Source of the DNA: a virus
Lineage: Duplodnaviria; Heunggongvirae; Uroviricota; Caudoviricetes
Virus record (IMG/VR): IMGVR_UViG_3300014893_000043
Direction: 5' to 3' (one strand)
Length of the DNA: 8,799 nucleotides
Shown here: positions 1 to 8,799 of the stretch, in pieces
How the letters are laid out: each line of letters begins with the position of its first letter
Position numbering within the stretch: the stretch's first letter is position 1
The notes under the pieces: model-generated
What the model was told of the DNA's origin: nothing
The model's input: the letters and a program-made list of their open reading frames with translations, nothing else
The model's database searches: none
Translations under genes and position numbers: made by a program

Positions 1-761
1 AGTTTATCGGTTAGATGCAGTTCATCAATAATAAATAGCGGCATATTTATCATGTAGAGATTATTCGCCGCCCACATCATTGAACAGACCACAAAAAGTA
101 GCCGCGTATCCCGCTTCCTGTGGGTGGAGGGTAAAATTTCTATGGGTTGGGTAACGACAGGAATATTTCTTTGTATTGATGGCAAAAACAACCAGACTAT
201 CAGTCCGCAAACAACAAATGCGATGGCAGCGGTGAGATACATCACTTTAAAACTAAATCCCATTGCCAGTTCATAAGCGAGCGGTGGCCCGATAACCCAG
301 GCAAGCGAGATCTGAGCACGTAAAAATGTACTGAACATGACCGTCTCACGGCCTGTTCTGTCGGCGTGTTCACGGGCGAGGGCGAACATTTGCGGGTTTG
401 CAGTGGAAGCAAAACTACTCAGAAGTACGCCCGTTGAGAGGAGAATGAAGTAGTTGCGATTCCACGCAAAAAGCGTGCAGGCCAGCACTCCAAATAAGCA
501 ACATAGCAGGATCAGTAATTTACGGTCGCCTTGTTTATCGGAGTGTCTTGCCAGAAATTGACTGACAAGAATTCCCATAATAGCGCTACCGGTGAAGAAA
601 AAACCTACCATTATAGGACGGGCTTTCAGTTCATCTGCGAGGAATATACTTAGGGTAGGAGTCTGGAGAGCGCCCGCAATACCCGTCAGAAAGGCGACAA
701 GTAAAAATGCCGCGGCAGTGAGATCAAGTATTTTTGATGGAGTGGTAGCCGTTTTTTGCAT
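1..761 (-). CDS. setC: Sugar efflux MFS transporter, Set family (likely SetC), N-terminal part; gene continues past the window start
   Basis: Minus-strand ORF, ATG at 761..759, open to position 1. Translation begins MQKTATTPSKILDLTAAAFLLVAFLTGIAGALQTPTLS... and contains ...HSDKQGDRKLL..., ...FALAREHAD... and ...AQISLAWVIGPPLA..., closely parallel to my recollection of E. coli SetA. Adjacency to a selC 3' end copy supports setC specifically. Confidence 0.6.
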   Translation of the reverse strand, partial: MQKTATTPSKILDLTAAAFLLVAFLTGIAGALQTPTLSIFLADELKARPIMVGFFFTGSAIMGILVSQFLARHSDKQGDRKLLILLCCLFGVLACTLFAWNRNYFILLSTGVLLSSFASTANPQMFALAREHADRTGRETVMFSTFLRAQISLAWVIGPPLAYELAMGFSFKVMYLTAAIAFVVCGLIVWLFLPSIQRNIPVVTQPIEILPSTHRKRDTRLLFVVCSMMWAANNLYMINMPLFIIDELHLTDK

Positions 762-1398
762 TCTTCTGAATCACCGGGCGACAAAATATAACTGAGTTAC
801 AAATAAGTACCAGTCGAATGAGTATTGTATTAAGAATTTTTGAGTGTCGCTGATACAACCAGAAAGCAATGCTAGCGCAATATTATAGGGCCAGCAATTG
901 AGATTATTAGCAAAAGCATGTTAAGAATTAATCACCGAATTTATATATTAATTATAGTAAGGCAATGAGCTATTTTTGATAGTAAAAATAAAACAAGTTG
1001 ATTTGATATATTAAATGAAAAAATTAATCTTGATGACAGTCTGATTATTGGTGAAGTTTACAGGTCAGTTTTTTTCGCCAGCTGTTAAAGGAATAGAATC
1101 GTCGTATAAAAAAGGGTGTTATGGAGCGTGTAAAACAATATCTTCACCTTAATGGCGATACAGTTGGCTGAGAGCCAGCAGGGGGCAAATCACCTGCAAA
1201 TAAACACGGCACATGCTGGCGCGCATATCGCGGATGCGTTCGAGGACAGAAGAACCGACAGGCGGATTCTTCAGTCGCTCATCGTCCATCACAAAACTTT
1301 TGATCAGGTATTCCTGAAGCCGATTGAATATTGAGCAGATAGAAAATCTCTGGAATGACAGTATTACAAGGGGTTGGAGAATGTCAGAAGAGGCTAAT

Positions 1399-1419
1399 TG
1401 GCGGAAGATCACAGGAGTC
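1399..1419 (-). other. att core: 21-bp copy of the tRNA-Sec (selC) 3' end, prophage/chromosome junction; no complete tRNA present
   Basis: TGGCGGAAGATCACAGGAGTC is the reverse complement of the selC 3' end GACTCCTGTGATCTTCCGCCA. Flanking sequence (AT-rich 1420..1500) does not continue the tRNA, so this is the partial duplicate expected at the island end distal to the integrase. Confidence 0.6.
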
Positions 1420-1540
1420 AAAATTGCCATATAACCACTTGATTCAAATCGTTTATATTTTTCTATTCTAATTCATTTATACACATCCTTATACATATAA
1501 TATCTATCGATTAATTGTTACACGTATCTTCACGCACGTT

Positions 1541-1845
1541 AACTCAGGAAAAAAATTTTTTTTCGGAAGAACTGTTCACACTGTTCACCTTTCTGTTTTC
1601 TCCTTTTATTTCAGTTTGATAGGTGGTGAATAATGGGTGAAGGGTGAACATTCGATTCTTCACCTCCGGCATTCTGCCGATGTGACTCATACCGGTGATT
1701 AATCCTCCGCACTGAAATCACTCAGGAAGAAAAAAGTTTTTTTTGATTTGATTGTTCACACTGTTCACCTTTCGTTTTTCTCTTTTAATTTCAGTGTGAT
1801 AACGGGTGAACATACGGTGAAGGGTGAACAGTGGATTGTTCACCT
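1541..1845. repeat. crr (cis replication region): two ~125-bp direct repeats (about 1541..1667 and 1719..1845), each with alpha-binding octamer iterons TGTTCACC / GGTGAACA
   Basis: Both units read ACTCAGGAA-A/T run-TGTTCACACTGTTCACCTTTC...GGTGAA...GGTGAAGGGTGAACA...TTCACC, with a ~50-bp spacer. Position just 3' of alpha matches P4 crr. Confidence 0.75.
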
Positions 1846-1863
1846 TCGGGGGATTCAGGGATG

Positions 1864-1887
1864 AAAAAAGACCGGCAGATGCCGGTC
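1864..1887 (-). terminator. Rho-independent terminator of the leftward alpha operon
   Basis: On the minus strand, 17 nt after the alpha stop codon: 7-bp stem GACCGGC / GCCGGTC with a 4-nt loop (1870..1887), followed by a run of six T (plus-strand A at 1864..1869). Confidence 0.6.
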
Positions 1888-1903
1888 AGATGAGTCATGA
1901 GGG

Positions 1904-4236
1904 TCAGGTTGTTGCAGGGTCGTCACATTTTGGCAGCCAGTCGCCGTAGCTTTCCTCTTTCAGCGTCAGGTTGGTCTGTATCCCCTGTTTGGTATGGCGC
2001 TTCTCGTAATTCAGCCCGTATTCCTTCAGCATCACCGGCAGCCCCAGCCCGAACATTTTCAGACTGAGTACATTCCGGTAGCCGTTTGCCTCCATGTAGG
2101 CCAGATAGGCGTGATAGAGGTATTTACGGTAGTTACGCGGGATGATACTGGCGTTCCCCATATACATGCCGCTGGTCTGCGGCAGGGGTTCCAGATAGCC
2201 GATAAAATCAAACGTCGGGTCGGCATCCCGTTTGATGTTCAGTGCCTCGTCTGAGTTCTGCTGGGACTGAAGCAGTGACCGGGCGAGCATCGGGTCGCTG
2301 AACTTCTGCATCAGGTGACGCACGATGACCGCCAGCTCGCGGGTGATTTTGTCCTTAAGTTGCGGGTCGCGCTCCTGCGGGGCTATCTGTTCCGGGAAGT
2401 GAATAATCACCCGCCGGCGTGACACGCCGCCGCTGCGGTCGGTGAAGCGCATCGGGTTATTGTTCACGGCCAGAATCACCGCCGGGATGTGCGTGGAGTA
2501 CGCATCCCGGTATTTCGGGTCAACGGACACTGCATCGCCGCCGGTGATGGCCTTGAGTCCGGCTCCGTCGCCGCTCCATTTTTCCTGGTCCGGCAGGCGT
2601 ATCAGTGAGAAGCCAGTTAACGCGGCACGTTCACGCGGGGATTCCAGCGTCTCGATGGTGGCCGACGTGGCGTTATCCTCACCGGCCAGCAGGGTGGCGA
2701 TTTCGGCCATGATACTTTTGCCGCTGCCGCCGGGACCGGTCACCTCCAGAAAGAGCTGCCAGTCGTAGCGGTTTGCCAGCACCATAAACAGTGCGGCCAG
2801 AATCACGTCGCGTTTTTCCGCACGGCCACCGGCGGCACGGTCAAGCCAGCGCCAGAACGCGGGGGCGTGGGTCTCCAGCGTTTCACCGTCCACCGGCGGG
2901 GTGAAATCCACATCGCACAGGGTGCGCATCCAGTGTGACGGACTGTGCGGATGGAACGTGCCGTTCTGCGTGTCGAGCACGCCGTTACGAAAGCCAATCA
3001 GGCGGCGGGAGGGGGCTTCCTGCTGCGGAATAATCAGTTTCAGGGTGTCCACCACGGAGGCCACCTTCCCGGAGGAGAACGGCGCGCGCAGACGCTGAAA
3101 CAGCCCGGCCACATCCCGGGCAAAGTCCTGTGGCGGCAGCACCTTCCAGACACCATTTTCATAGCGGGACAGAAGCTGGCCGTTGGCATCGACCGCGAGC
3201 GCCTCGCCGTAATGCTCATAGATACGCATGGCCTTTTCGCTGGTACTCATGGCGGAAAACTCTGCTTCGCTCATGGTGTCGAACGGGCTTTCAGCCGGTG
3301 GCCGGATGGCATCGTAAATGGCCTTACGGGTGGCCTCCCCGCCGTACTGCGTGAAGGCATCATTCCAGTCACCGAAGACCGGCGGCAGGGCAACAACGCC
3401 CTCACACGCATCTGCGGCTGCGGCGGCTTTTTTCTGGCCGTCACCGCTGAGGTCACGGTCTGCGGCAAGGACAATCTGACAGGCCGGATGCTTCTGCCGG
3501 GCAAGGCTGGCCAGAGAAAGGAGGTTCACGGAAGAAAGCGCCACCATCACCGTTTCACCGGTCAGGTGATGCACGGTAAGTGCGGTCGCGTATCCCTCCG
3601 CTATCCACAGACGTTTTCCGGCCTGATTCTGTCCTTCAAGGGTGTGACAGGTGCCCCTGACCTGTCCGCCTTTCAGGGTGCGCTTACGGCCGTCAGCACT
3701 GATTAACTGAAGGTTAACCAGTTCGCCGCTGTCGTCATACAGTGGCACCACAAGGTCACCGGCACGCCAGCTCACGCCACCGGCTCTGTGTGTGCCGGTC
3801 AGCATCCGGCATTCCCGGCCGGGAAAGCCCTTGCGGGTCAGGTAGGCGTTACCGGTTCCGGGACGGGTTTTCGCCATCAGGGTTTGTGCCAGTGCGGCGG
3901 CGTTCTTCCGGGCAGCGTCTGTTTCAGCACCGGCGGCGGCCGTCACTGCCGGGTCAGCCGGGGGCAGGCTGCCGGTCACGGCAGCCACCTTTGCGGCCGC
4001 GTCGGACGGAGAGACACCAAACACCTTTCCAACCAGTTTCAGGCCGTCACCGGCACCACACTGATTGCAGTACCAGGTGCCGCGCCCCTCCCTGTCATCA
4101 AAACGGAAGCGGTCACTCCCGCCACAGACCGGACAGGGCTGATGACGGTTTTTCAGCACCTGAATCCCCAGCGCCGGGAGANNNNNNNNNNNNNNNNNNN
4201 NNNNNNNNNNNNNNNNGCGGTTACGTTCATTTTCAT
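1904..4236 (-). CDS. alpha: P4 alpha: bifunctional DNA primase/helicase with origin-binding domain; interrupted by N-run 4182..4216
   Basis: 751-codon ORF 1904..4159 continues in frame to the N-run. Beyond the gap, ATG at 4236..4234 (MKMNVTA...) is preceded by AGGAGA. Zinc motif CPVCGG...CNQCG, primase acidic motif LAADRDLSGDG, Walker A GPGGSGKS. The span is 2333 nt, so the N-run length is not frame-preserving. Confidence 0.93.
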
Positions 4237-4250
4237 GGTGTTGTTCTCCT

Positions 4251-4571
4251 TCAGTGCAGTACCGGCGCTTTTATGTGACGGGCACAGAGTTCATCCATCA
4301 CAACCAGCCCGAGAAAGGACAGCGACGGCGCGGCCTTCAGGGGGCCGGATTCCATTAAATCTTCCAGCAGGGCACAGGCTATCTGACGCCCTTTTTCCTC
4401 ACCGTGCTGGCGCAGATAAAAGCCTTCCAGCTCAGCGGCGATGGCCGCCTCCAGTGACTCAAGGGTGAGATGCGGGTAGCGGTGCTGACGTTCGCACACG
4501 GTCAGCCAGGCACAGGCGACAGCGCGACGGTAAAGGGCAGCACGTAAGACGGGCGGTAAGGGTGTTTTCAT
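4251..4571 (-). CDS. Hypothetical protein, 106 aa (P4 orf106-like), immediately upstream of alpha
   Basis: ATG at 4571..4569 preceded by GGAGG with a 7-nt spacer. Stop at 4251..4253 lies within the alpha RBS region, indicating translational coupling. Confidence 0.7.
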
Positions 4572-4652
4572 TTGTTTTCCTCCCTGTGACAGATGACTGC
4601 ATTCCGTGCCGGTTGCATTAACTGATAAGGCATATCTGCGTCTCCTGAAGAC

Positions 4653-4690
4653 GTGCGTATCCCTGCGCGAATACGCACATTTAATTTTTC
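4653..4690 (+). terminator. Terminator-like hairpin plus T-tract, oriented for the + strand, in the orf151-orf106 intercistronic gap
   Basis: Perfect 8-bp stem GTGCGTAT / ATACGCAC (4653..4660, 4671..4678) with a 10-nt loop, followed by ATTTAATTTTTC on the + strand. On the minus-strand mRNA it is preceded, not followed, by the U-rich run. Confidence 0.3.
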
Positions 4691-4706
4691 GGGTGTCGTT
4701 TTTTAA

Positions 4707-5162
4707 TTACAGATAATTGCGGTAACTGTTATCCGGGGTGATTTCCGGGTCAGGCTCCGTGCGGGGAATTTCCCGCCATTCCCGCGCCACCGGTGCCGCC
4801 CGGCTGACCGGAACAGGGGCCTGCGGGTAAATATCCAGATATTTCTCCCGCCATTTCTGTAATTCCGGGTCTCCGGCCATTTCTTTCAGTACCGCATGCC
4901 GGTTTACGGGGCTGCGTTTAAACAGGTCAGGACGGTCACAGGTAAATTCCCGCAGAAAACGCCCCAGCGGGATGTCTGTGGTGCGCCCGTCAGCGAGGAT
5001 ACGCACAAGGATACTGAATTTACGGCGGTACGGATTCCAGACAATGTCCGGGCAGCGGTACGGCATTTCCCACGGAATACCGTCTTCCAGAATGCCGACC
5101 ACGGCCACATCGGGAAAACCGGCAGAACGGTAAATCTCACCGGGCTGGGGAAAATCAAACAT
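4707..5162 (-). CDS. Hypothetical protein, 151 aa (P4 orf151-like)
   Basis: Minus-strand ORF with typical enteric codon usage, in operon order with its neighbours; its ATG overlaps the stop of the upstream 95-codon ORF (8-nt overlap 5155..5162). Confidence 0.7.
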   Translation of the reverse strand: MFDFPQPGEIYRSAGFPDVAVVGILEDGIPWEMPYRCPDIVWNPYRRKFSILVRILADGRTTDIPLGRFLREFTCDRPDLFKRSPVNRHAVLKEMAGDPELQKWREKYLDIYPQAPVPVSRAAPVAREWREIPRTEPDPEITPDNSYRNYL

Positions 5163-5442
5163 GCGTCCTGTCTCCCCGGTCTTTCTGCTGGGCGAGAAAA
5201 TCGCGGCACAGGCCTTTGGCTTTCAGCTCATTCAGCACAAAATCAATATCTTCATTCAGGTAACTGAAAATATGCGGAATGTAGAGCTGATGCAGGCCGG
5301 AGAGTTCACGGTGAATCAAATCATCCCCAACAAACTGGGATACGGCGCTGGCGCGGTTGAGCTTATGGTAAGCCTCAATGCTGAGGTGTTCACGGGCGTC
5401 ATGACGCGCTGAGACGGTCTGAGGGGCTTTTTTATTACGCAC
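5155..5442 (-). CDS. 95-aa protein; candidate P4 epsilon (E) antirepressor by size and position. Name is tentative
   Basis: GTG at 5442..5440 preceded by GGAGG with a 6-nt spacer. Product [32 protein letters not shown]...[11 protein letters not shown]. The 190-aa form in the ORF track extends upstream across another ORF's RBS and is not preferred. Confidence 0.5.
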
Positions 5443-5632
5443 GGGACACCTCCACCACCGGCAGACGGGCAGCAAGGGAGAGCACATAGTCACGGACAAG
5501 GGAACGGCGGGCACTGCGTTCATCACCGGCGACGGTGCGAAGCATACAGATACGGGGATGACGGTCTGTGCGACGGACAGCCGCAAACACAAAGACAAAT
5601 TCAGGGTGTGAGGGGGTAAGGGTTGTAGCCAT
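5435..5632 (-). CDS. 65-aa small ORF, first cistron after the leader; candidate kil-like function. Name is tentative
   Basis: ATG at 5632..5630 preceded by AGGAGG with an 8-nt spacer. Product [65 protein letters not shown]. Stop overlaps the downstream GTG start. Confidence 0.45.
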
Positions 5633-5662
5633 GATGGCAGCCTCCTGTGAATAGCAAATAAC

Positions 5663-5698
5663 GCTATCGCCGGAGTTTCCACGCTCGATGGCGATAGC
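5663..5698 (-). other. Stem-loop in the leftward leader, immediately 5' of the first ORF's RBS; candidate attenuator/terminator or part of the immunity RNA structure
   Basis: 9-bp inverted repeat GCTATCGCC (5663..5671) / GGCGATAGC (5690..5698) with an 18-nt loop. On the minus transcript it is followed by GUUAUUUGCUAUU and then the AGGAGG RBS. Confidence 0.3.
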
Positions 5699-5977
5699 CC
5701 AGACGGGGGTGGAAATACCGGCTTCACAGGATACCGGCCAGCCCGGAGGCTGCCCCGCCTGAGCTACCATTGACTCTGCGGCATAATGAGCGGACGCGGG
5801 CAGGATGCACGGAGTTCCATCTGCTCNNNNNNNNNNACGACTGACCACACACCACACCATAATCTGGCGCTCTGTGGCGTTGATTGCGACACAAAAAAAG
5901 ACGCATGGCGCGTCATATGTCGCCTGTGAATTGCTCGGGTTTCCACGCCCGGCTGCCGATTTTGCGGCAGCGGAAAA

Positions 5978-6007
5978 ACTATATCCGCAAATGCCGGAAA
6001 AAGGCAA
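5978..6007 (-). promoter_or_regulatory. Candidate sigma70 promoter for the leftward early operon (PLE-like)
   Basis: Minus strand reads TTGCCT (plus 6002..6007), an 18-nt spacer, then TATAGT (plus 5978..5983). Predicted start near 5971, about 395 bp downstream of the predicted PLL start, consistent with my recollection of roughly 400 bp PLL-PLE spacing in P4. Confidence 0.35.
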
Positions 6008-6042
6008 GCCAGAAAAAGGGAGTTTTTGCAGAGCGGGCATCA

Positions 6043-6309
6043 TCATGCGTCGTACCCCCGTTTGCGTCCGGCAATGCGCCCGGCCATCCATGCAGTGACT
6101 TCAGAGTGCAGCCAGGCCACATTTTTACCGCCAAGACTCACCTGCGGCGGAAATTCCCCCTTACGGATGAGTTCGTAGATGGTCGAGCGTGACAGGCCGC
6201 ACAGGTGCATCACTTCCGGAAGACGTAAAAAACGCTCCTGTGTGATGTCCGGCAGCGGCATCAGTGGCGTCACAGGGGCGGGAGACGGGGAAGAAAAAAC
6301 AGCTTGCAT
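6043..6309 (-). CDS. vis: Vis (orf88): AlpA-family helix-turn-helix regulator/excisionase, 88 aa
   Basis: ATG at 6309..6307 preceded by GAGGT. The protein carries an AlpA-like HTH (RFLRLPEVMHLCGLSRSTIYELIRKGEFP). Size and position (first gene leftward from the late promoter) match P4 vis. Confidence 0.8.
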   Translation of the reverse strand: MQAVFSSPSPAPVTPLMPLPDITQERFLRLPEVMHLCGLSRSTIYELIRKGEFPPQVSLGGKNVAWLHSEVTAWMAGRIAGRKRGYDA

Positions 6310-6411
6310 CGGGCTACCTCGTTAATGTCCATACAGCACCGGATAAGTCCGTCCGGCTTCGGGTAGCGCTTTATTTTGTGAATATTTTCGGCAGACGCAA
6401 CAGGGGGGATT

Positions 6412-6429
6412 TGTTCCGGCAGCCTTACA
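6412..6429 (-). promoter_or_regulatory. Delta/Ogr-type activator site TGT-N12-ACA; candidate leftward late promoter PLL
   Basis: TGTtccggcagccttACA. Placing the dyad at about -55 gives a leftward start near 6365 with a -10-like CAAAAT on the minus strand, about 55 nt upstream of the vis ATG. Confidence 0.5.
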
Positions 6430-6588
6430 ATGGCTGTGCATTTTTTGTACATCAGCACCAGATAGCTTTAAAACGCTCTGGAAGGAGCTGGAAAAAATTA
6501 TAGTGAAATACAAATTGTTTTTTCTTATTTATTTCAGTGAATTAATAAAAATAAAAAGTAATAAACAGCACAAAAAGCCCATCAACGG

Positions 6589-6692
6589 GTGAACAGTGGT
6601 GAACAGACGGTGAACAGTCATTACTGCGATTGTTCACCCTTTAACTTACTGTATTACTTATCTTTTTTCTTATTGTGAACAGAGGTGAACAG
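6589..6692. repeat. ori: iteron cluster of alpha-binding octamers in an AT-rich setting
   Basis: GTGAACAG repeated at 6589, 6599 and 6610 (10-11 bp phasing); inverted TTGTTCACC at 6630..6638; GTGAACAG / GGTGAACAG at 6675..6692. AT-rich flanks at 6510..6580 and 6640..6720. It lies about 4.8 kb from crr, matching the P4 ori-crr arrangement. Confidence 0.7.
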
Positions 6693-6772
6693 TAAAATAT
6701 AAAAAAAAACAAACAGTAAGCCGGTTTTTCCTGCGACCTTTTCCTGGCTTGCCGGTCTGAGGATGAGTCTCC

Positions 6773-6790
6773 TGTGTCAGGGCTGGCACA
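6773..6790 (+). promoter_or_regulatory. Delta/Ogr-type activator site TGT-N12-ACA; candidate rightward late promoter Psid
   Basis: TGTgtcagggctggcACA. A dyad at about -55 gives a start near 6837 with a -10-like CACAAT at 6825..6830, upstream of the sid ATG at 6863. Confidence 0.6.
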
Positions 6791-6862
6791 TCTGCAATGC
6801 GTCGTGTTGTTGTCCGGTGTACGTCACAATTTTCTTAACCTGAAGTGACGAGGAACCGGAAA

Positions 6863-7597
6863 ATGTCTGACAACACCATCCCTGAATATCTGCAACCCGC
6901 GCTGGCACAACTGGAAAAGGCCAGAGCCGCCCATCTTGAGAACGCCCGCCTGATGGATGAGACCGTCACGGCCATTGAACGGGCAGAGCAGGAAAAAAAT
7001 GCGCTGGCGCAGGCCGACGGAAACGACGCTGACGACTGGCGCACGGCCTTTCGTGCAGCCGGTGGTGTCCTGAGCGACGAGCTGAAGCAGCGCCACATTG
7101 AGCGCGTGGCACGCCGGGAGCTGGTACAGGAATATGACAATCTGGCCGTGGTGCTGAATTTTGAACGCGAACGCCTGAAAGGGGCGTGTGACAGCACGGC
7201 CACCGCCTACCGGAAGGCACATCATCACCTTCTGAGTCTGTATGCAGAGCATGAGCTGGAACACGCCCTGAATGAAACCTGTGAGGCGCTTGTCCGGGCA
7301 ATGCATCTGAGCATCCTGGTACAGGAAAATCCGCTCGCCAACACCACCGGCCATCAGGGCTACATCGCACCGGAAAAGGCTGTCATGCAGCAGGTGAAAT
7401 CATCGCTGGAACAGAAAATAAAACAGATGCAAATCAGCCTCACCGGCGAGCCGGTTCTCCGGCTGACCGGACTGTCAGCGGCAACACTTCCTCACATGGA
7501 TTATGAGGTGGCAGGCACACCGGCACAGCGCAAGGTGTGGCAGGACAAAATAGACCAGCAGGGAGCAGAGCTTAAGGCCAGAGGACTGCTGTCATGA
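6863..7597 (+). CDS. sid: Sid: external capsid size-determination scaffold protein, 244 aa
   Basis: ATG at 6863 preceded by AGGAA. Product MSDNTIPEYLQPALAQLEKARAAHLENARLMDETV... matches P4 Sid as I recall it. The ORF track's 250-aa form starts at an upstream GTG lacking a comparable RBS. Confidence 0.93.
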   Translation: MSDNTIPEYLQPALAQLEKARAAHLENARLMDETVTAIERAEQEKNALAQADGNDADDWRTAFRAAGGVLSDELKQRHIERVARRELVQEYDNLAVVLNFERERLKGACDSTATAYRKAHHHLLSLYAEHELEHALNETCEALVRAMHLSILVQENPLANTTGHQGYIAPEKAVMQQVKSSLEQKIKQMQISLTGEPVLRLTGLSAATLPHMDYEVAGTPAQRKVWQDKIDQQGAELKARGLLS

Positions 7598-8094
7598 TTT
7601 ACTGCCCGTCGTGTGGACATGTTGCTCATACCCGTCGCGCACATTTCATGGACGATGGCACCAAGATAATGATTGCACAGTGCCGGAATATTTATTGCTC
7701 TGCGACATTTGAAGCGAGTGAAAGCTTTTTCTCTGACTGTAAAGATTCAGGAATGGAATACATTTCAGGCAAACAGAGATACCGCGATTCACTGACTTCT
7801 GCCTCCGGCAGTATGAAACGCCCGAAAAGAATGCTTGTTACCGGATATTGTTGTCGGAGATGTAAAGGCCTTGCACTGTCAAGAACATCGCGGCGTCTGT
7901 CTCAGGAAGTCACCGAACGTTTTTATGTGTGCACGGAGCCGGGCTGTGGTCTGGTGTTTAAAACGCTTCAGACCATCAACCGCTTCATTGTCCGCCCGGT
8001 CACACCGGACGAACTGGCAGAAAGCCTGCATGAAAAACAGGAACTGCCGCCAGTACGGTTAAAAACACAATCATATTCGCTGCGTCTGGAATGA
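7594..8094 (+). CDS. delta: Delta: late-gene transcriptional activator, tandem Ogr-type zinc-finger protein, 166 aa
   Basis: ATG overlaps the sid stop (ATGA at 7594..7597), preceded by GAGGA. Two C-X2-C...C-X4-C motifs: CPSCGH...CRNIYC and CRRCKG...CTEPGC. Confidence 0.93.
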   Translation: MIYCPSCGHVAHTRRAHFMDDGTKIMIAQCRNIYCSATFEASESFFSDCKDSGMEYISGKQRYRDSLTSASGSMKRPKRMLVTGYCCRRCKGLALSRTSRRLSQEVTERFYVCTEPGCGLVFKTLQTINRFIVRPVTPDELAESLHEKQELPPVRLKTQSYSLRLE

Positions 8095-8167
8095 GGGCTG
8101 CCGGTTAACCCCGGCCGTCGCCGCACACCGTATTTTTATTCTTCAGCATGATGAGAAAGAGATAACG

Positions 8168-8740
8168 ATGGAAAGCACAGCCTTACAGCAGGCCTTTGAC
8201 ACCTGTCAGAATAACAAAGCAGCATGGCTGCAACGCAAAAATGAGCTGGCTGCGGCCGAACAGGAATATCTGCGGCTTCTGTCAGGAGAAGGCAGAAACG
8301 TCAGTCGCCTGGACGAATTACGCAATATTATCGAAGTCAGAAAATGGCAGGGGAATCAGGCCGCCGGTCGTTATATTCGTTCGCATGAAGCCGTTCAGCA
8401 TATCAGCATCCGCGACCGGCTGAATGATTTTATGCAGCAGCACGGCACAGCACTGGCGGCGGCACTGGCACCGGAGCTGATGGGCTACAGTGAGCTGACG
8501 GCCATTGCCCGAAACTGTGCCATACAGCGTGCCACAGATGCCCTGCGTGAAGCCCTTTTGTCCTGGCTTGCGAAGGGGGAAAAAATTAATTATTCCGCAC
8601 AGGATAGCGACATTTTAACGGCCATCGGATTCAGGCCTGACGCAGCTTCGGTGGATGACAGCCGTGAAAAATTCACCCCTGCGCAGAACATGATTTTTTC
8701 GCGCAAAAGTGCGCAACTGGCATCACATCAGTCTGTGTAA
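8168..8740 (+). CDS. psu: Psu: polarity suppression protein (Rho antagonist) and capsid decoration protein, 190 aa
   Basis: Product MESTALQQAFDTCQNNKAAWLQRKNELAAAEQEYLRLLSGEGRNVSRLDELRNIIEVRKWQ... and its 190-aa length match P4 Psu as I recall it. Last gene of the sid-delta-psu operon. Confidence 0.93.
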   Translation: MESTALQQAFDTCQNNKAAWLQRKNELAAAEQEYLRLLSGEGRNVSRLDELRNIIEVRKWQGNQAAGRYIRSHEAVQHISIRDRLNDFMQQHGTALAAALAPELMGYSELTAIARNCAIQRATDALREALLSWLAKGEKINYSAQDSDILTAIGFRPDAASVDDSREKFTPAQNMIFSRKSAQLASHQSV

Positions 8741-8799
8741 AACTCCCCGAAAATCCGCCCGTTTTTACTGAAAAAAGCCATGCATCGATAAGGTGCATG

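What the first reader, a model, noticed from the sequence alone, without database searches (positions are those of the whole stretch)
1399..1419. P4-type satellite prophage integrated at tRNA-Sec (selC), not at the classical P4 leuX site
A 21-bp exact copy of the selC 3' end sits between crr/alpha and a Set-family transporter gene, defining the island boundary. The replication and late modules otherwise look like canonical P4. The integrase and the complete selC should lie beyond the right edge, past psu.
Basis: partly seen in the sequence, partly recalled or inferred. Interest (0 to 1): 0.45.

Follow-up and report, generated by a model that had tools for sequence, protein, structure and literature searches.

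The report
P4 satellite prophage boundary at selC
The 21-base copy of the tRNA-Sec (selC) 3' end is the real outer boundary of a P4 satellite prophage inserted at selC, but this kind of element has been known since 1991 and occurs in about 6% of complete E. coli genomes, so it is ordinary.

Summary
Window 1399-1419 (TGGCGGAAGATCACAGGAGTC) is the exact reverse complement of the last 21 nt of E. coli selC. It is unique in the window and is not part of a complete tRNA. To its left (1-1398) the window is colinear with the empty K-12 site (setC, then the yicT/rhuM remnant). To its right the sequence leaves selC and becomes element DNA: a 130-bp non-P4 attachment arm with two arm-type repeats, then 7.25 kb that is 97.5% identical to phage P4 (crr, alpha, orf106, orf151, epsilon, CI RNA, vis, ori, sid, delta, psu).

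It holds in all seven complete relatives examined: 2-3 kb beyond psu lie a variable defence-cargo slot, a tyrosine integrase (38% identical to P4 Int, same domain architecture) and a second copy of the core, which lies within a complete tRNA-Sec in the five loci that extend far enough. The attP layout mirrors P4's position for position, but with selC-specific sequences, so int and attP were exchanged as one unit.

This is not new. Retronphage phiR73 (1991) is a P4-like, P2-mobilised element at selC. The same junction occurs in about 330 of 5,426 complete E. coli genomes, including O157:H7 and O26:H11. Interest is low.

The parts
1..761 (-). setC (sugar efflux transporter), 5' part of the gene with start codon at 761. 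Chromosomal backbone, not part of the element.
   Evidence: Annotated as setC in L001/L002 at the matching position. Translates without stops from MQKTATTPSK. Colinear with K-12 setC.
1191..1319 (-). yicT / RhuM-family pseudogene remnant. Backbone, also present in the empty K-12 site.
   Evidence: PGAP annotation in L001/L002. K-12 yicT pseudogene lies between selC and setC. Pfam RhuM match 1.8e-10 in ORF 1149-1430.
1399..1419 (-). att core at the alpha-proximal, integrase-distal junction: a copy of the last 21 nt of selC (tRNA-Sec), read on the minus strand.
   Evidence: Exact match to the K-12 selC 3' end. Unique in the window, 0 expected by chance. A second copy lies within selC in relatives.
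1420..1549 (.). Element-side attachment arm, specific to the selC-type integration module and not homologous to P4.
   Evidence: P4 identity begins only at 1550. The sequence next to the core is constant in all junction copies.
1478..1498 (+). Two tandem arm-type repeats TATACA(C/T)AT (1478-1486 and 1490-1498, 12-bp spacing), inferred binding sites for the integrase arm-binding domain.
   Evidence: 2 matches against 0.04 expected. The same motif occurs as a tandem pair at -131/-119 and as an inverted copy over the int ATG at -164 in the attP reconstructed from L001/L002. This mirrors P4's annotated arm repeats at -136/-124, +54/+66 and -163. Binding is inferred, not shown.
1550..1849 (+). crr (cis replication region): two 120-bp direct repeats (1550-1669, 1730-1849) carrying type-1 TGTTCACC iterons.
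   Evidence: Maps to P4 crr 4291-4590. Repeat family D1.
1863..1887 (-). Putative rho-independent terminator of alpha.
   Evidence: Maps to the P4 t-alpha feature 4604-4628.
1904..4236 (-). alpha primase-helicase gene, interrupted by a 35-N masked run at 4182-4216.
   Evidence: 99.1% aa identity to P4 alpha residues 20-776. The N-run is 1 nt shorter than the 36 nt found in P4/L001/L002, so the reading frame cannot be confirmed.
4251..4571 (-). orf106 (DUF5375).
   Evidence: 100% aa identity to P4 ORF106.
4707..5162 (-). orf151.
   Evidence: 98% aa identity to P4 ORF151.
5155..5442 (-). epsilon (helper derepression protein).
   Evidence: 97.9% aa identity to P4 epsilon.
5687..5774 (-). CI immunity RNA (Rfam C4 antisense RNA).
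   Evidence: RF01695, 76.6 bits against a gathering score of 45.
5894..5984 (-). Leader region with the CI RNA target sites (Rfam isrK 5894-5971 and c4-a1b1 5932-5984).
   Evidence: RF01394 at 74.9 bits and RF03163 at 50.2 bits.
6043..6309 (-). orf88 / vis (AlpA-type excisionase and regulator).
   Evidence: 98.9% aa identity to P4 ORF88.
6455..6691 (.). ori: type-2 repeats (6455-6484) and type-1 iterons (6588-6691).
   Evidence: Mapped from P4 annotation 9176-9413.
6863..7597 (+). sid (capsid size determination).
   Evidence: 99.2% aa identity to P4 Sid.
7594..8094 (+). delta (Ogr/Delta late activator).
   Evidence: 97% aa identity to P4 Delta.
8168..8740 (+). psu (polarity suppression / capsid decoration).
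   Evidence: 97.9% aa identity to P4 Psu.

Best explanation
The 21-mer is the integrase-distal attachment junction of a P4 satellite prophage inserted at the 3' end of selC.

Inferred mechanism: a P4-family tyrosine integrase, encoded beyond the right edge of the window, recombined the element's attP core with the identical last 21 nt of tRNA-Sec. Because the core is duplicated, selC is regenerated intact next to int. The displaced copy of its 3' end is left at the far junction, still attached to the original downstream DNA (yicT remnant, setC). That displaced copy is the one in the window.

The 130 bp between the core and crr form one arm of attP. They carry two tandem arm-type sites for the integrase's N-terminal arm-binding domain. 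Everything from crr to psu is essentially P4 (97.5% nt identity). The element should therefore replicate through alpha/ori/crr, hold immunity through CI RNA, and exploit a P2-type helper through epsilon, delta, sid and psu.

Compared with P4, int and attP have been exchanged as one unit. The layout is the same but the core and arm sequences differ, which retargets the element from leuX to selC.

Shown here: the sequence identities, junction structure, repeat geometry and organisation in relatives. Inferred: integrase binding, recombination activity, and the presence of int and selC on this particular contig.
For: - Core is the exact selC 3' end, unique in the window, and not a tRNA.
- The left flank is colinear with the empty K-12 site. 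The right flank is constant element DNA in all junction copies, while the chromosomal flank has at least 3 variants.
- Window 1550-8799 is 97.5% identical to P4, with all nine P4 proteins at 94-100% and the CI RNA and its targets found by Rfam.
- Seven of seven relatives spanning the element have an integrase 163 bp from a second core copy. tRNA-Sec is complete in the five that extend far enough.
- In relatives without IS insertions the two core copies are 10.7-11.2 kb apart, close to P4's 11.6 kb.
- The integrase is 38% identical to P4 Int, with the same Arm-DNA-bind_3, Phage_int_M and Phage_integrase domains.
- Arm motif positions are -164, -131/-119 and +57/+69, against P4's -163, -136/-124 and +54/+66.
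- P4's core is the last 20 nt of leuX, the equivalent position in that tRNA.
- Literature: phiR73 is a P4-like element at selC, packaged with P2 help and re-integrating at selC.
Against: - The window ends about 60 bp after psu and its source contig was not recovered. Integrase, cos and the complete selC are therefore inferred from relatives that are 96-99% identical, not seen directly.
- The masked run in alpha is 35 N where relatives have 36 nt, so alpha could carry a frameshift and this copy could be replication-defective.
- No experiment shows excision or integrase binding for this copy.
Confidence: 0.93

Rival explanations
1. The element is a selC-integrated P4-like prophage, but this particular copy is a decayed, immobile remnant. 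For example, alpha may be frameshifted, or the integrase or far junction may be lost or disrupted. The 21-mer would then be a fossil boundary.
For: The 35-N run replaces 36 nt in the alpha N-terminus. Some relatives are visibly damaged: an IS66-family insertion in the O26/O103/O111 copies, and an inexact alpha-side core with IS debris in O157:H7.
Against: All other genes are intact at 97-100% identity to functional P4. The core is exact. The length mismatch may be an artefact of masking. All seven complete relatives keep integrase and selC.
Confidence: 0.15
2. This is a composite or tandem island: further foreign DNA, such as another selC island, lies between psu and selC. The integrase next to selC would then not belong to this P4-like element.
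For: selC is a well-known hotspot for several islands. In O157:H7 the satellite lies directly next to LEE, though on the alpha side.
Against: In all seven relatives only a 1-2 gene cargo slot separates psu from int and selC. In the window the alpha side joins clean backbone.
Confidence: 0.05
3. The 21-mer is unrelated to the P4-like element. It could be a chance match, part of a real tRNA, or the boundary of an older rhuM-containing island.
For: A RhuM remnant lies 80 bp to the left. From my own knowledge, RhuM is a gene of the selC-linked island SPI-3 in Salmonella.
Against: Chance expectation is 0 and there is no tRNA. The rhuM remnant is also present in the unoccupied K-12 site, where the same 21 nt continue into intact selC. 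Divergence from selC begins exactly where the element arm begins. There are no degenerate extra core copies.
Confidence: 0.01

Closest known systems
Enterobacteria phage P4 (NC_001609 / X51522)
   Same: Window 1550-8799 is 97.5% nt identical to P4 4291-11519. Gene order and content are identical (crr, alpha, orf106, orf151, epsilon, CI RNA, orf88/vis, ori, sid, delta, psu). The attP layout matches: the core is the 3'-terminal 20-21 nt of a tRNA, with 12-bp-spaced tandem arm sites on both sides and an inverted arm site over the int start codon.
   Different: The target is selC, not leuX. The core and arm-site sequences are unrelated: TATACAYAT here against GGGGGCA-type repeats in P4. The arm between core and crr is 130 bp instead of 193 bp and is not homologous. 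The integrase in relatives is only 38% identical to P4 Int. The psu-int cargo in relatives differs from P4's gop-beta-cII.
Retronphage phiR73 (Sun, Inouye & Inouye 1991, J Bacteriol 173:4171; Inouye et al. 1991, Science 252:969)
   Same: It is a P4-like prophage integrated in the selenocystyl-tRNA gene of E. coli. It is packaged with P2 as helper and re-integrates at selC in new hosts. This is the same kind of element at the same site.
   Different: phiR73 carries retron Ec73 as cargo. The cargo of the window's element is unknown because it lies beyond the edge. Relatives carry a UG17 reverse transcriptase with SLATT, a DEAD/DEAH helicase pair, or PDC-M18.
P4-family prophage next to LEE in E. 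coli O157:H7 (933L), and the 'Selc*B / Selc*Cr (CP4)' prophages of E. coli B and Crooks
   Same: O157:H7 strain 7.1_Anguil has the same satellite: selC, int, helicase cargo, psu, delta, sid through alpha, then the core. CP4-type prophages at selC are tabulated for E. coli B and Crooks. [quoted passage not shown]
   Different: In O157:H7 the alpha-side junction abuts IS debris and LEE instead of yicT-setC, and that core copy is not exact. The name 933L for this element comes from my memory of Perna et al. 1998, which I did not read here.
P4-like satellite family as surveyed by Moura de Sousa & Rocha 2021 (PMC8628076) and Rousset et al. 2022 (PMC9122126)
   Same: Conserved core order int-psu-delta-sid-alpA-epsilon-alpha. 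Integrases are often exchanged, so the elements are scattered across chromosomal sites. There is a variable defence hotspot between psu/cos and int. The window and its relatives fit all of this.
   Different: Nothing substantive. This is one of the lineages closest to P4 itself within that family.

Membership tests
P4-like phage satellite (core components per PMC8628076: int, psu, delta, sid, alpA, epsilon, alpha) | psu, delta and sid hijacking operon present and in P4 order | tested here: met
   97-99% aa identity to P4 Sid, Delta and Psu at 6863-8740, with no internal stops.
P4-like phage satellite (core components per PMC8628076: int, psu, delta, sid, alpA, epsilon, alpha) | alpA/vis (orf88) and epsilon present | tested here: met
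   98.9% and 97.9% aa identity to the P4 proteins.
P4-like phage satellite (core components per PMC8628076: int, psu, delta, sid, alpA, epsilon, alpha) | alpha primase-helicase, with ori and crr iterons | tested here: met
   Alpha residues 20-776 are 99.1% identical. crr and ori map onto P4 features. Caveat: the first ~19 codons are masked and the N-run is 1 nt short.
P4-like phage satellite (core components per PMC8628076: int, psu, delta, sid, alpA, epsilon, alpha) | CI RNA immunity system | tested here: met
   Rfam C4 (76.6 bits), c4-a1b1 (50.2 bits) and isrK (74.9 bits), all above their gathering scores.
P4-like phage satellite (core components per PMC8628076: int, psu, delta, sid, alpA, epsilon, alpha) | Tyrosine integrase adjacent to the target tRNA, on the psu side | not testable with these tools
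   It lies outside the window and the source contig was not found. Met in 7 of 7 relatives that span the element.
P4-like phage satellite (core components per PMC8628076: int, psu, delta, sid, alpA, epsilon, alpha) | cos site and a packageable size of about 11 kb | not testable with these tools
   The window ends at the position equivalent to P4 11519, about 105 bp before cos. In relatives without IS insertions the two core copies are 10.7-11.2 kb apart.
phiR73-type selC-integrating P4-like prophage | Insertion at the 3' end of selC, with duplication of the tRNA 3' end | tested here: met
   The 21-nt core equals the selC 3' end at the alpha-side junction in the window, and a second copy lies within selC in relatives.
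phiR73-type selC-integrating P4-like prophage | Retron Ec73 cargo | not testable with these tools
   The cargo slot lies beyond the window. Relatives carry other systems. The retron is an accessory feature and does not define the integration type.
phiR73-type selC-integrating P4-like prophage | Integrase orthologous to phiR73 Int | not tested
   The phiR73 sequence is absent from the collections searched (one search returned only P4 records). The names in the integrase cluster are generic.
phiR73-type selC-integrating P4-like prophage | P2-dependent packaging and re-integration at selC | not testable with these tools
   This needs an experiment. It is reported for phiR73.
P4 Int-type attP (tRNA 3'-end core plus arm-type sites) | Core identical to the 3'-terminal ~20 nt of the target tRNA | tested here: met
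   21 of 21 to selC here, and 20 of 20 to leuX for P4.
P4 Int-type attP (tRNA 3'-end core plus arm-type sites) | Repeated arm-type sites on both sides of the core, plus one over the int start codon | tested here: met
   TATACAYAT at -164 (inverted), -131/-119 and +57/+69, against P4's -163, -136/-124 and +54/+66. Protein binding was not tested.

The most novel reading that the evidence does not exclude
The only mildly novel reading is about how the module was exchanged. A backbone 97.5% identical to P4 is joined to a foreign int-attP unit exactly at the left edge of crr (window 1550). The unit keeps P4's attP geometry to within about 5 bp while every recognition sequence is replaced. That would suggest the crr border (the A/T run at 1549-1564), together with the cos-proximal hotspot, are preferred recombination points. 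These would let P4 satellites swap chromosomal target as a self-contained unit. This was not tested beyond the one breakpoint seen here.
Probability: 0.3. Interest if true: 0.2.

Novelty: already known. Interest (0 to 1): 0.08.

Why it matters
It matters little as a discovery. P4-like prophages at selC were described in 1991 (phiR73), and they occur in hundreds of sequenced E. coli genomes, including reference EHEC strains. The practical value is in annotation. The 21-mer marks the exact prophage boundary. The 130-bp arm with its two TATACAYAT sites belongs to the attachment site. The yicT/rhuM remnant belongs to the chromosome, not to the element. The locus is also a clean textbook example of modular exchange of integrase and attP between otherwise near-identical satellites.

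Tried and rejected
- **Finding the source contig.** I scanned genome contigs with the core-plus-arm 38-mer and got 0 hits. Viral contigs gave 2 hits and metagenome contigs 14, but none is identical to the window (96-99%). The extension was therefore done on relatives only.
- **Reading the founding paper.** Sun et al. 1991 (PMC208067) is not held, so phiR73 facts come from papers that cite it.
- **Naming the integrase.** The exact-cluster look-up returned only generic names. I ran no further search on this.
- **An older att copy near the rhuM remnant.** There is none with up to 6 mismatches.
- **The 93-aa ORF 1149-1430 that spans the core.** It is a RhuM fragment (profile positions 50-108 of 252) whose first ~11 codons run by chance through the core and arm. 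It is annotated as a pseudogene in relatives.
- **The 21-mer as part of a tRNA.** Rejected by ARAGORN.

Full report
**1. The observation**

Window 1399-1419 reads TGGCGGAAGATCACAGGAGTC. It occurs once in the window, even with 3 mismatches allowed, and none is expected by chance. No degenerate copy exists with up to 6 mismatches. It is the exact reverse complement of the last 21 nt of E. coli K-12 selC, ending at the CCA terminus. Beyond the 21st base, identity to selC falls to 8 of 19 and then to background. ARAGORN finds no tRNA in the window.

**2. What lies on each side**

- **Left of the core (1-1398).** This is E. coli backbone. It holds setC (1-761, minus strand) and a RhuM-family remnant (1191-1319), which K-12 annotates as the yicT pseudogene. 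Order and spacing match the unoccupied K-12 site, where the same 21 nt continue into an intact selC.
- **Right of the core (1420-1549).** These 130 bp match neither selC nor P4.
- **From 1550 to the window end.** This is 97.5% identical to phage P4 coordinates 4291-11519. P4 identity starts exactly at the left edge of crr.
- **Gene content.** All P4 genes in that interval are present: alpha, orf106, orf151, epsilon, the cI-region ORF, orf88/vis, sid, delta and psu. Their amino-acid identity to P4 is 94-100%. Rfam finds the CI immunity RNA and its target sites above gathering scores. crr and ori iterons map onto the P4 annotation.

**3. The prediction about the far side**

I could not recover the window's own contig. 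The genome-contig scan gave no hit. The 16 viral and metagenome loci carrying the same core-plus-arm 38-mer are 96-99% identical to the window, not 100%. The test was therefore made on relatives.

- About 330 of 5,426 complete E. coli genomes contain the same junction of backbone, core, arm and crr (335, 326).
- Seven loci span the whole element: strain 51489 (L001), O26:H11 11368 (L002), O157:H7 7.1_Anguil (L021), Combat2C1 (L022), one IMG/VR contig (L006) and two metagenome contigs (L016, L019).
- In all seven, a variable 1-2 gene slot follows psu, then a tyrosine integrase whose start codon lies 163 bp from a second exact copy of the core.
- That copy lies within a complete tRNA-Sec in the five loci that extend far enough. 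L016 and L019 end inside selC.
- The two core copies are 10.7-11.2 kb apart, or 14.0 kb with an IS66-family insertion. P4 is 11.6 kb.
- The element-side sequence next to the core is constant in all junction copies. The chromosomal side comes in at least three backbone variants. This is the pattern expected of site-specific insertion.

**4. Mechanism**

The integrase in relatives has the same three Pfam domains as P4 Int (Arm-DNA-bind_3, Phage_int_M, Phage_integrase) but is only 38% identical to it. P4's annotated attP core is exactly the last 20 nt of leuX, so the two cores occupy the same position in different tRNAs.

I reconstructed the selC element's attP from L001 and L002. A 9-mer, TATACA(C/T)AT, occurs at positions that closely match P4's annotated arm repeats:

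| Arm site | P4 | selC element |
|---|---|---|
| Inverted copy over the int start codon (from core start) | -163 | -164 |
| Tandem pair, int side (from core start) | -136 / -124 | -131 / -119 |
| Tandem pair, alpha side (from core end) | +54 / +66 | +57 / +69 |

In the window the alpha-side pair lies at 1478-1486 and 1490-1498. That is 2 matches where 0.04 are expected.

The best explanation is a P4 satellite whose integrase and attP were exchanged as one unit, retargeting it from leuX to selC. Integration through the 21-bp core regenerates selC next to int. It leaves the displaced 3'-end copy at the alpha-proximal junction, which is the copy in the window. The sequence relationships are shown here. 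Integrase binding and recombination activity are inferred.

**5. Comparison with what is known**

[quoted passage not shown] It is packaged with P2 help and re-integrates at selC in new lysogens (citing Sun et al. 1991 and Inouye et al. 1991).
- CP4-type prophages at selC are tabulated for E. coli B and Crooks.
- In O157:H7 the same satellite lies between selC and LEE. [quoted passage not shown]
- Surveys of P4-like satellites report frequent integrase exchange with scattered integration sites. They also report a defence-gene hotspot between psu/cos and int.
- The relatives fit that hotspot model. Their cargo is RT_UG17 with SLATT, a DEAD/DEAH helicase pair, or PDC-M18.
- The integrase belongs to a single 90%-identity cluster of 2,979 members across Escherichia, Salmonella, Citrobacter, Enterobacter and Klebsiella.

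**6. Caveats**

- Integrase, cos and the complete selC were not seen on this contig.
- The masked run in alpha is 35 N where P4, L001 and L002 have 36 nt between identical flanks. Alpha's reading frame cannot be verified, so a defective copy remains possible (rival 1, about 0.15).
- The phiR73 sequence itself was not available for a direct alignment.

**7. Verdict**

The feature is a textbook att junction of a common, long-known type of element. Novelty: already known. Interest: low (0.08).

Noticed in passing
window 4182-4216: The masked run is 35 N, whereas P4, L001 and L002 all have 36 nt between identical flanks. As given, alpha (1904-4236) is 2333 nt and out of frame. Either the masking does not preserve length or a 1-nt deletion is hidden there.
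   Followed up: partly
window 1149-1430 (ORF) / 1191-1319 (pseudogene): A RhuM-family remnant (K-12 yicT) sits just outside the prophage boundary and is part of the empty-site backbone. Other E. coli backbones (L022 14933-15970; IMG/VR L005, L006, L017) carry a full-length 345-aa rhuM directly next to the same core, in place of yicT and setC.
   Followed up: partly
L021 (O157:H7 7.1_Anguil) 12949-27397: The same satellite lies between selC and the LEE island. The alpha-side junction there has IS66/IS3 debris and an inexact core copy, so satellite and LEE form a composite selC island.
   Followed up: partly
L001 29005-31250; L002 31764-34045; L022 23641-25260: The slot between psu and int holds different candidate defence systems in different strains: RT_UG17 with SLATT (DRT), a DEAD/DEAH helicase with a 141-aa protein, and PDC-M18A/B. 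The window ends before this slot, so its own cargo is unknown.
   Followed up: partly
GenBank MG065686.1 68894-70320 and MG065691.1 103803-105220 (phages collection): Two 'Campylobacter phage' genome records contain 1.4 kb of E. coli setC-yicT-selC DNA, 97% identical to window 1-1428 and 1-1419. These are probably chimeric or contaminated assemblies.
   Followed up: no
window 5760-5886 vs L001 25760-25829 and L019: Just upstream of the CI RNA, the window and P4 have 127 bp where L001 and L019 have about 70 bp that do not align. This may be an immunity-region variant among otherwise near-identical satellites. The window's second N-run (5827-5836) lies inside this stretch.
   Followed up: no
L002 24726-27341 (and O103/O111 relatives): An IS66-family element (ISCro1) is inserted between orf106 and orf151 in the O26/O103/O111 copies of the satellite. 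The window's copy lacks it.
   Followed up: no
window 1420-1430 vs selC: Immediately past the 21-bp core, the element arm keeps partial similarity to selC (AAAATTGCC against GAACCTGCC, 6 of 9). This suggests an originally longer region of homology between attP and the tRNA.
   Followed up: no
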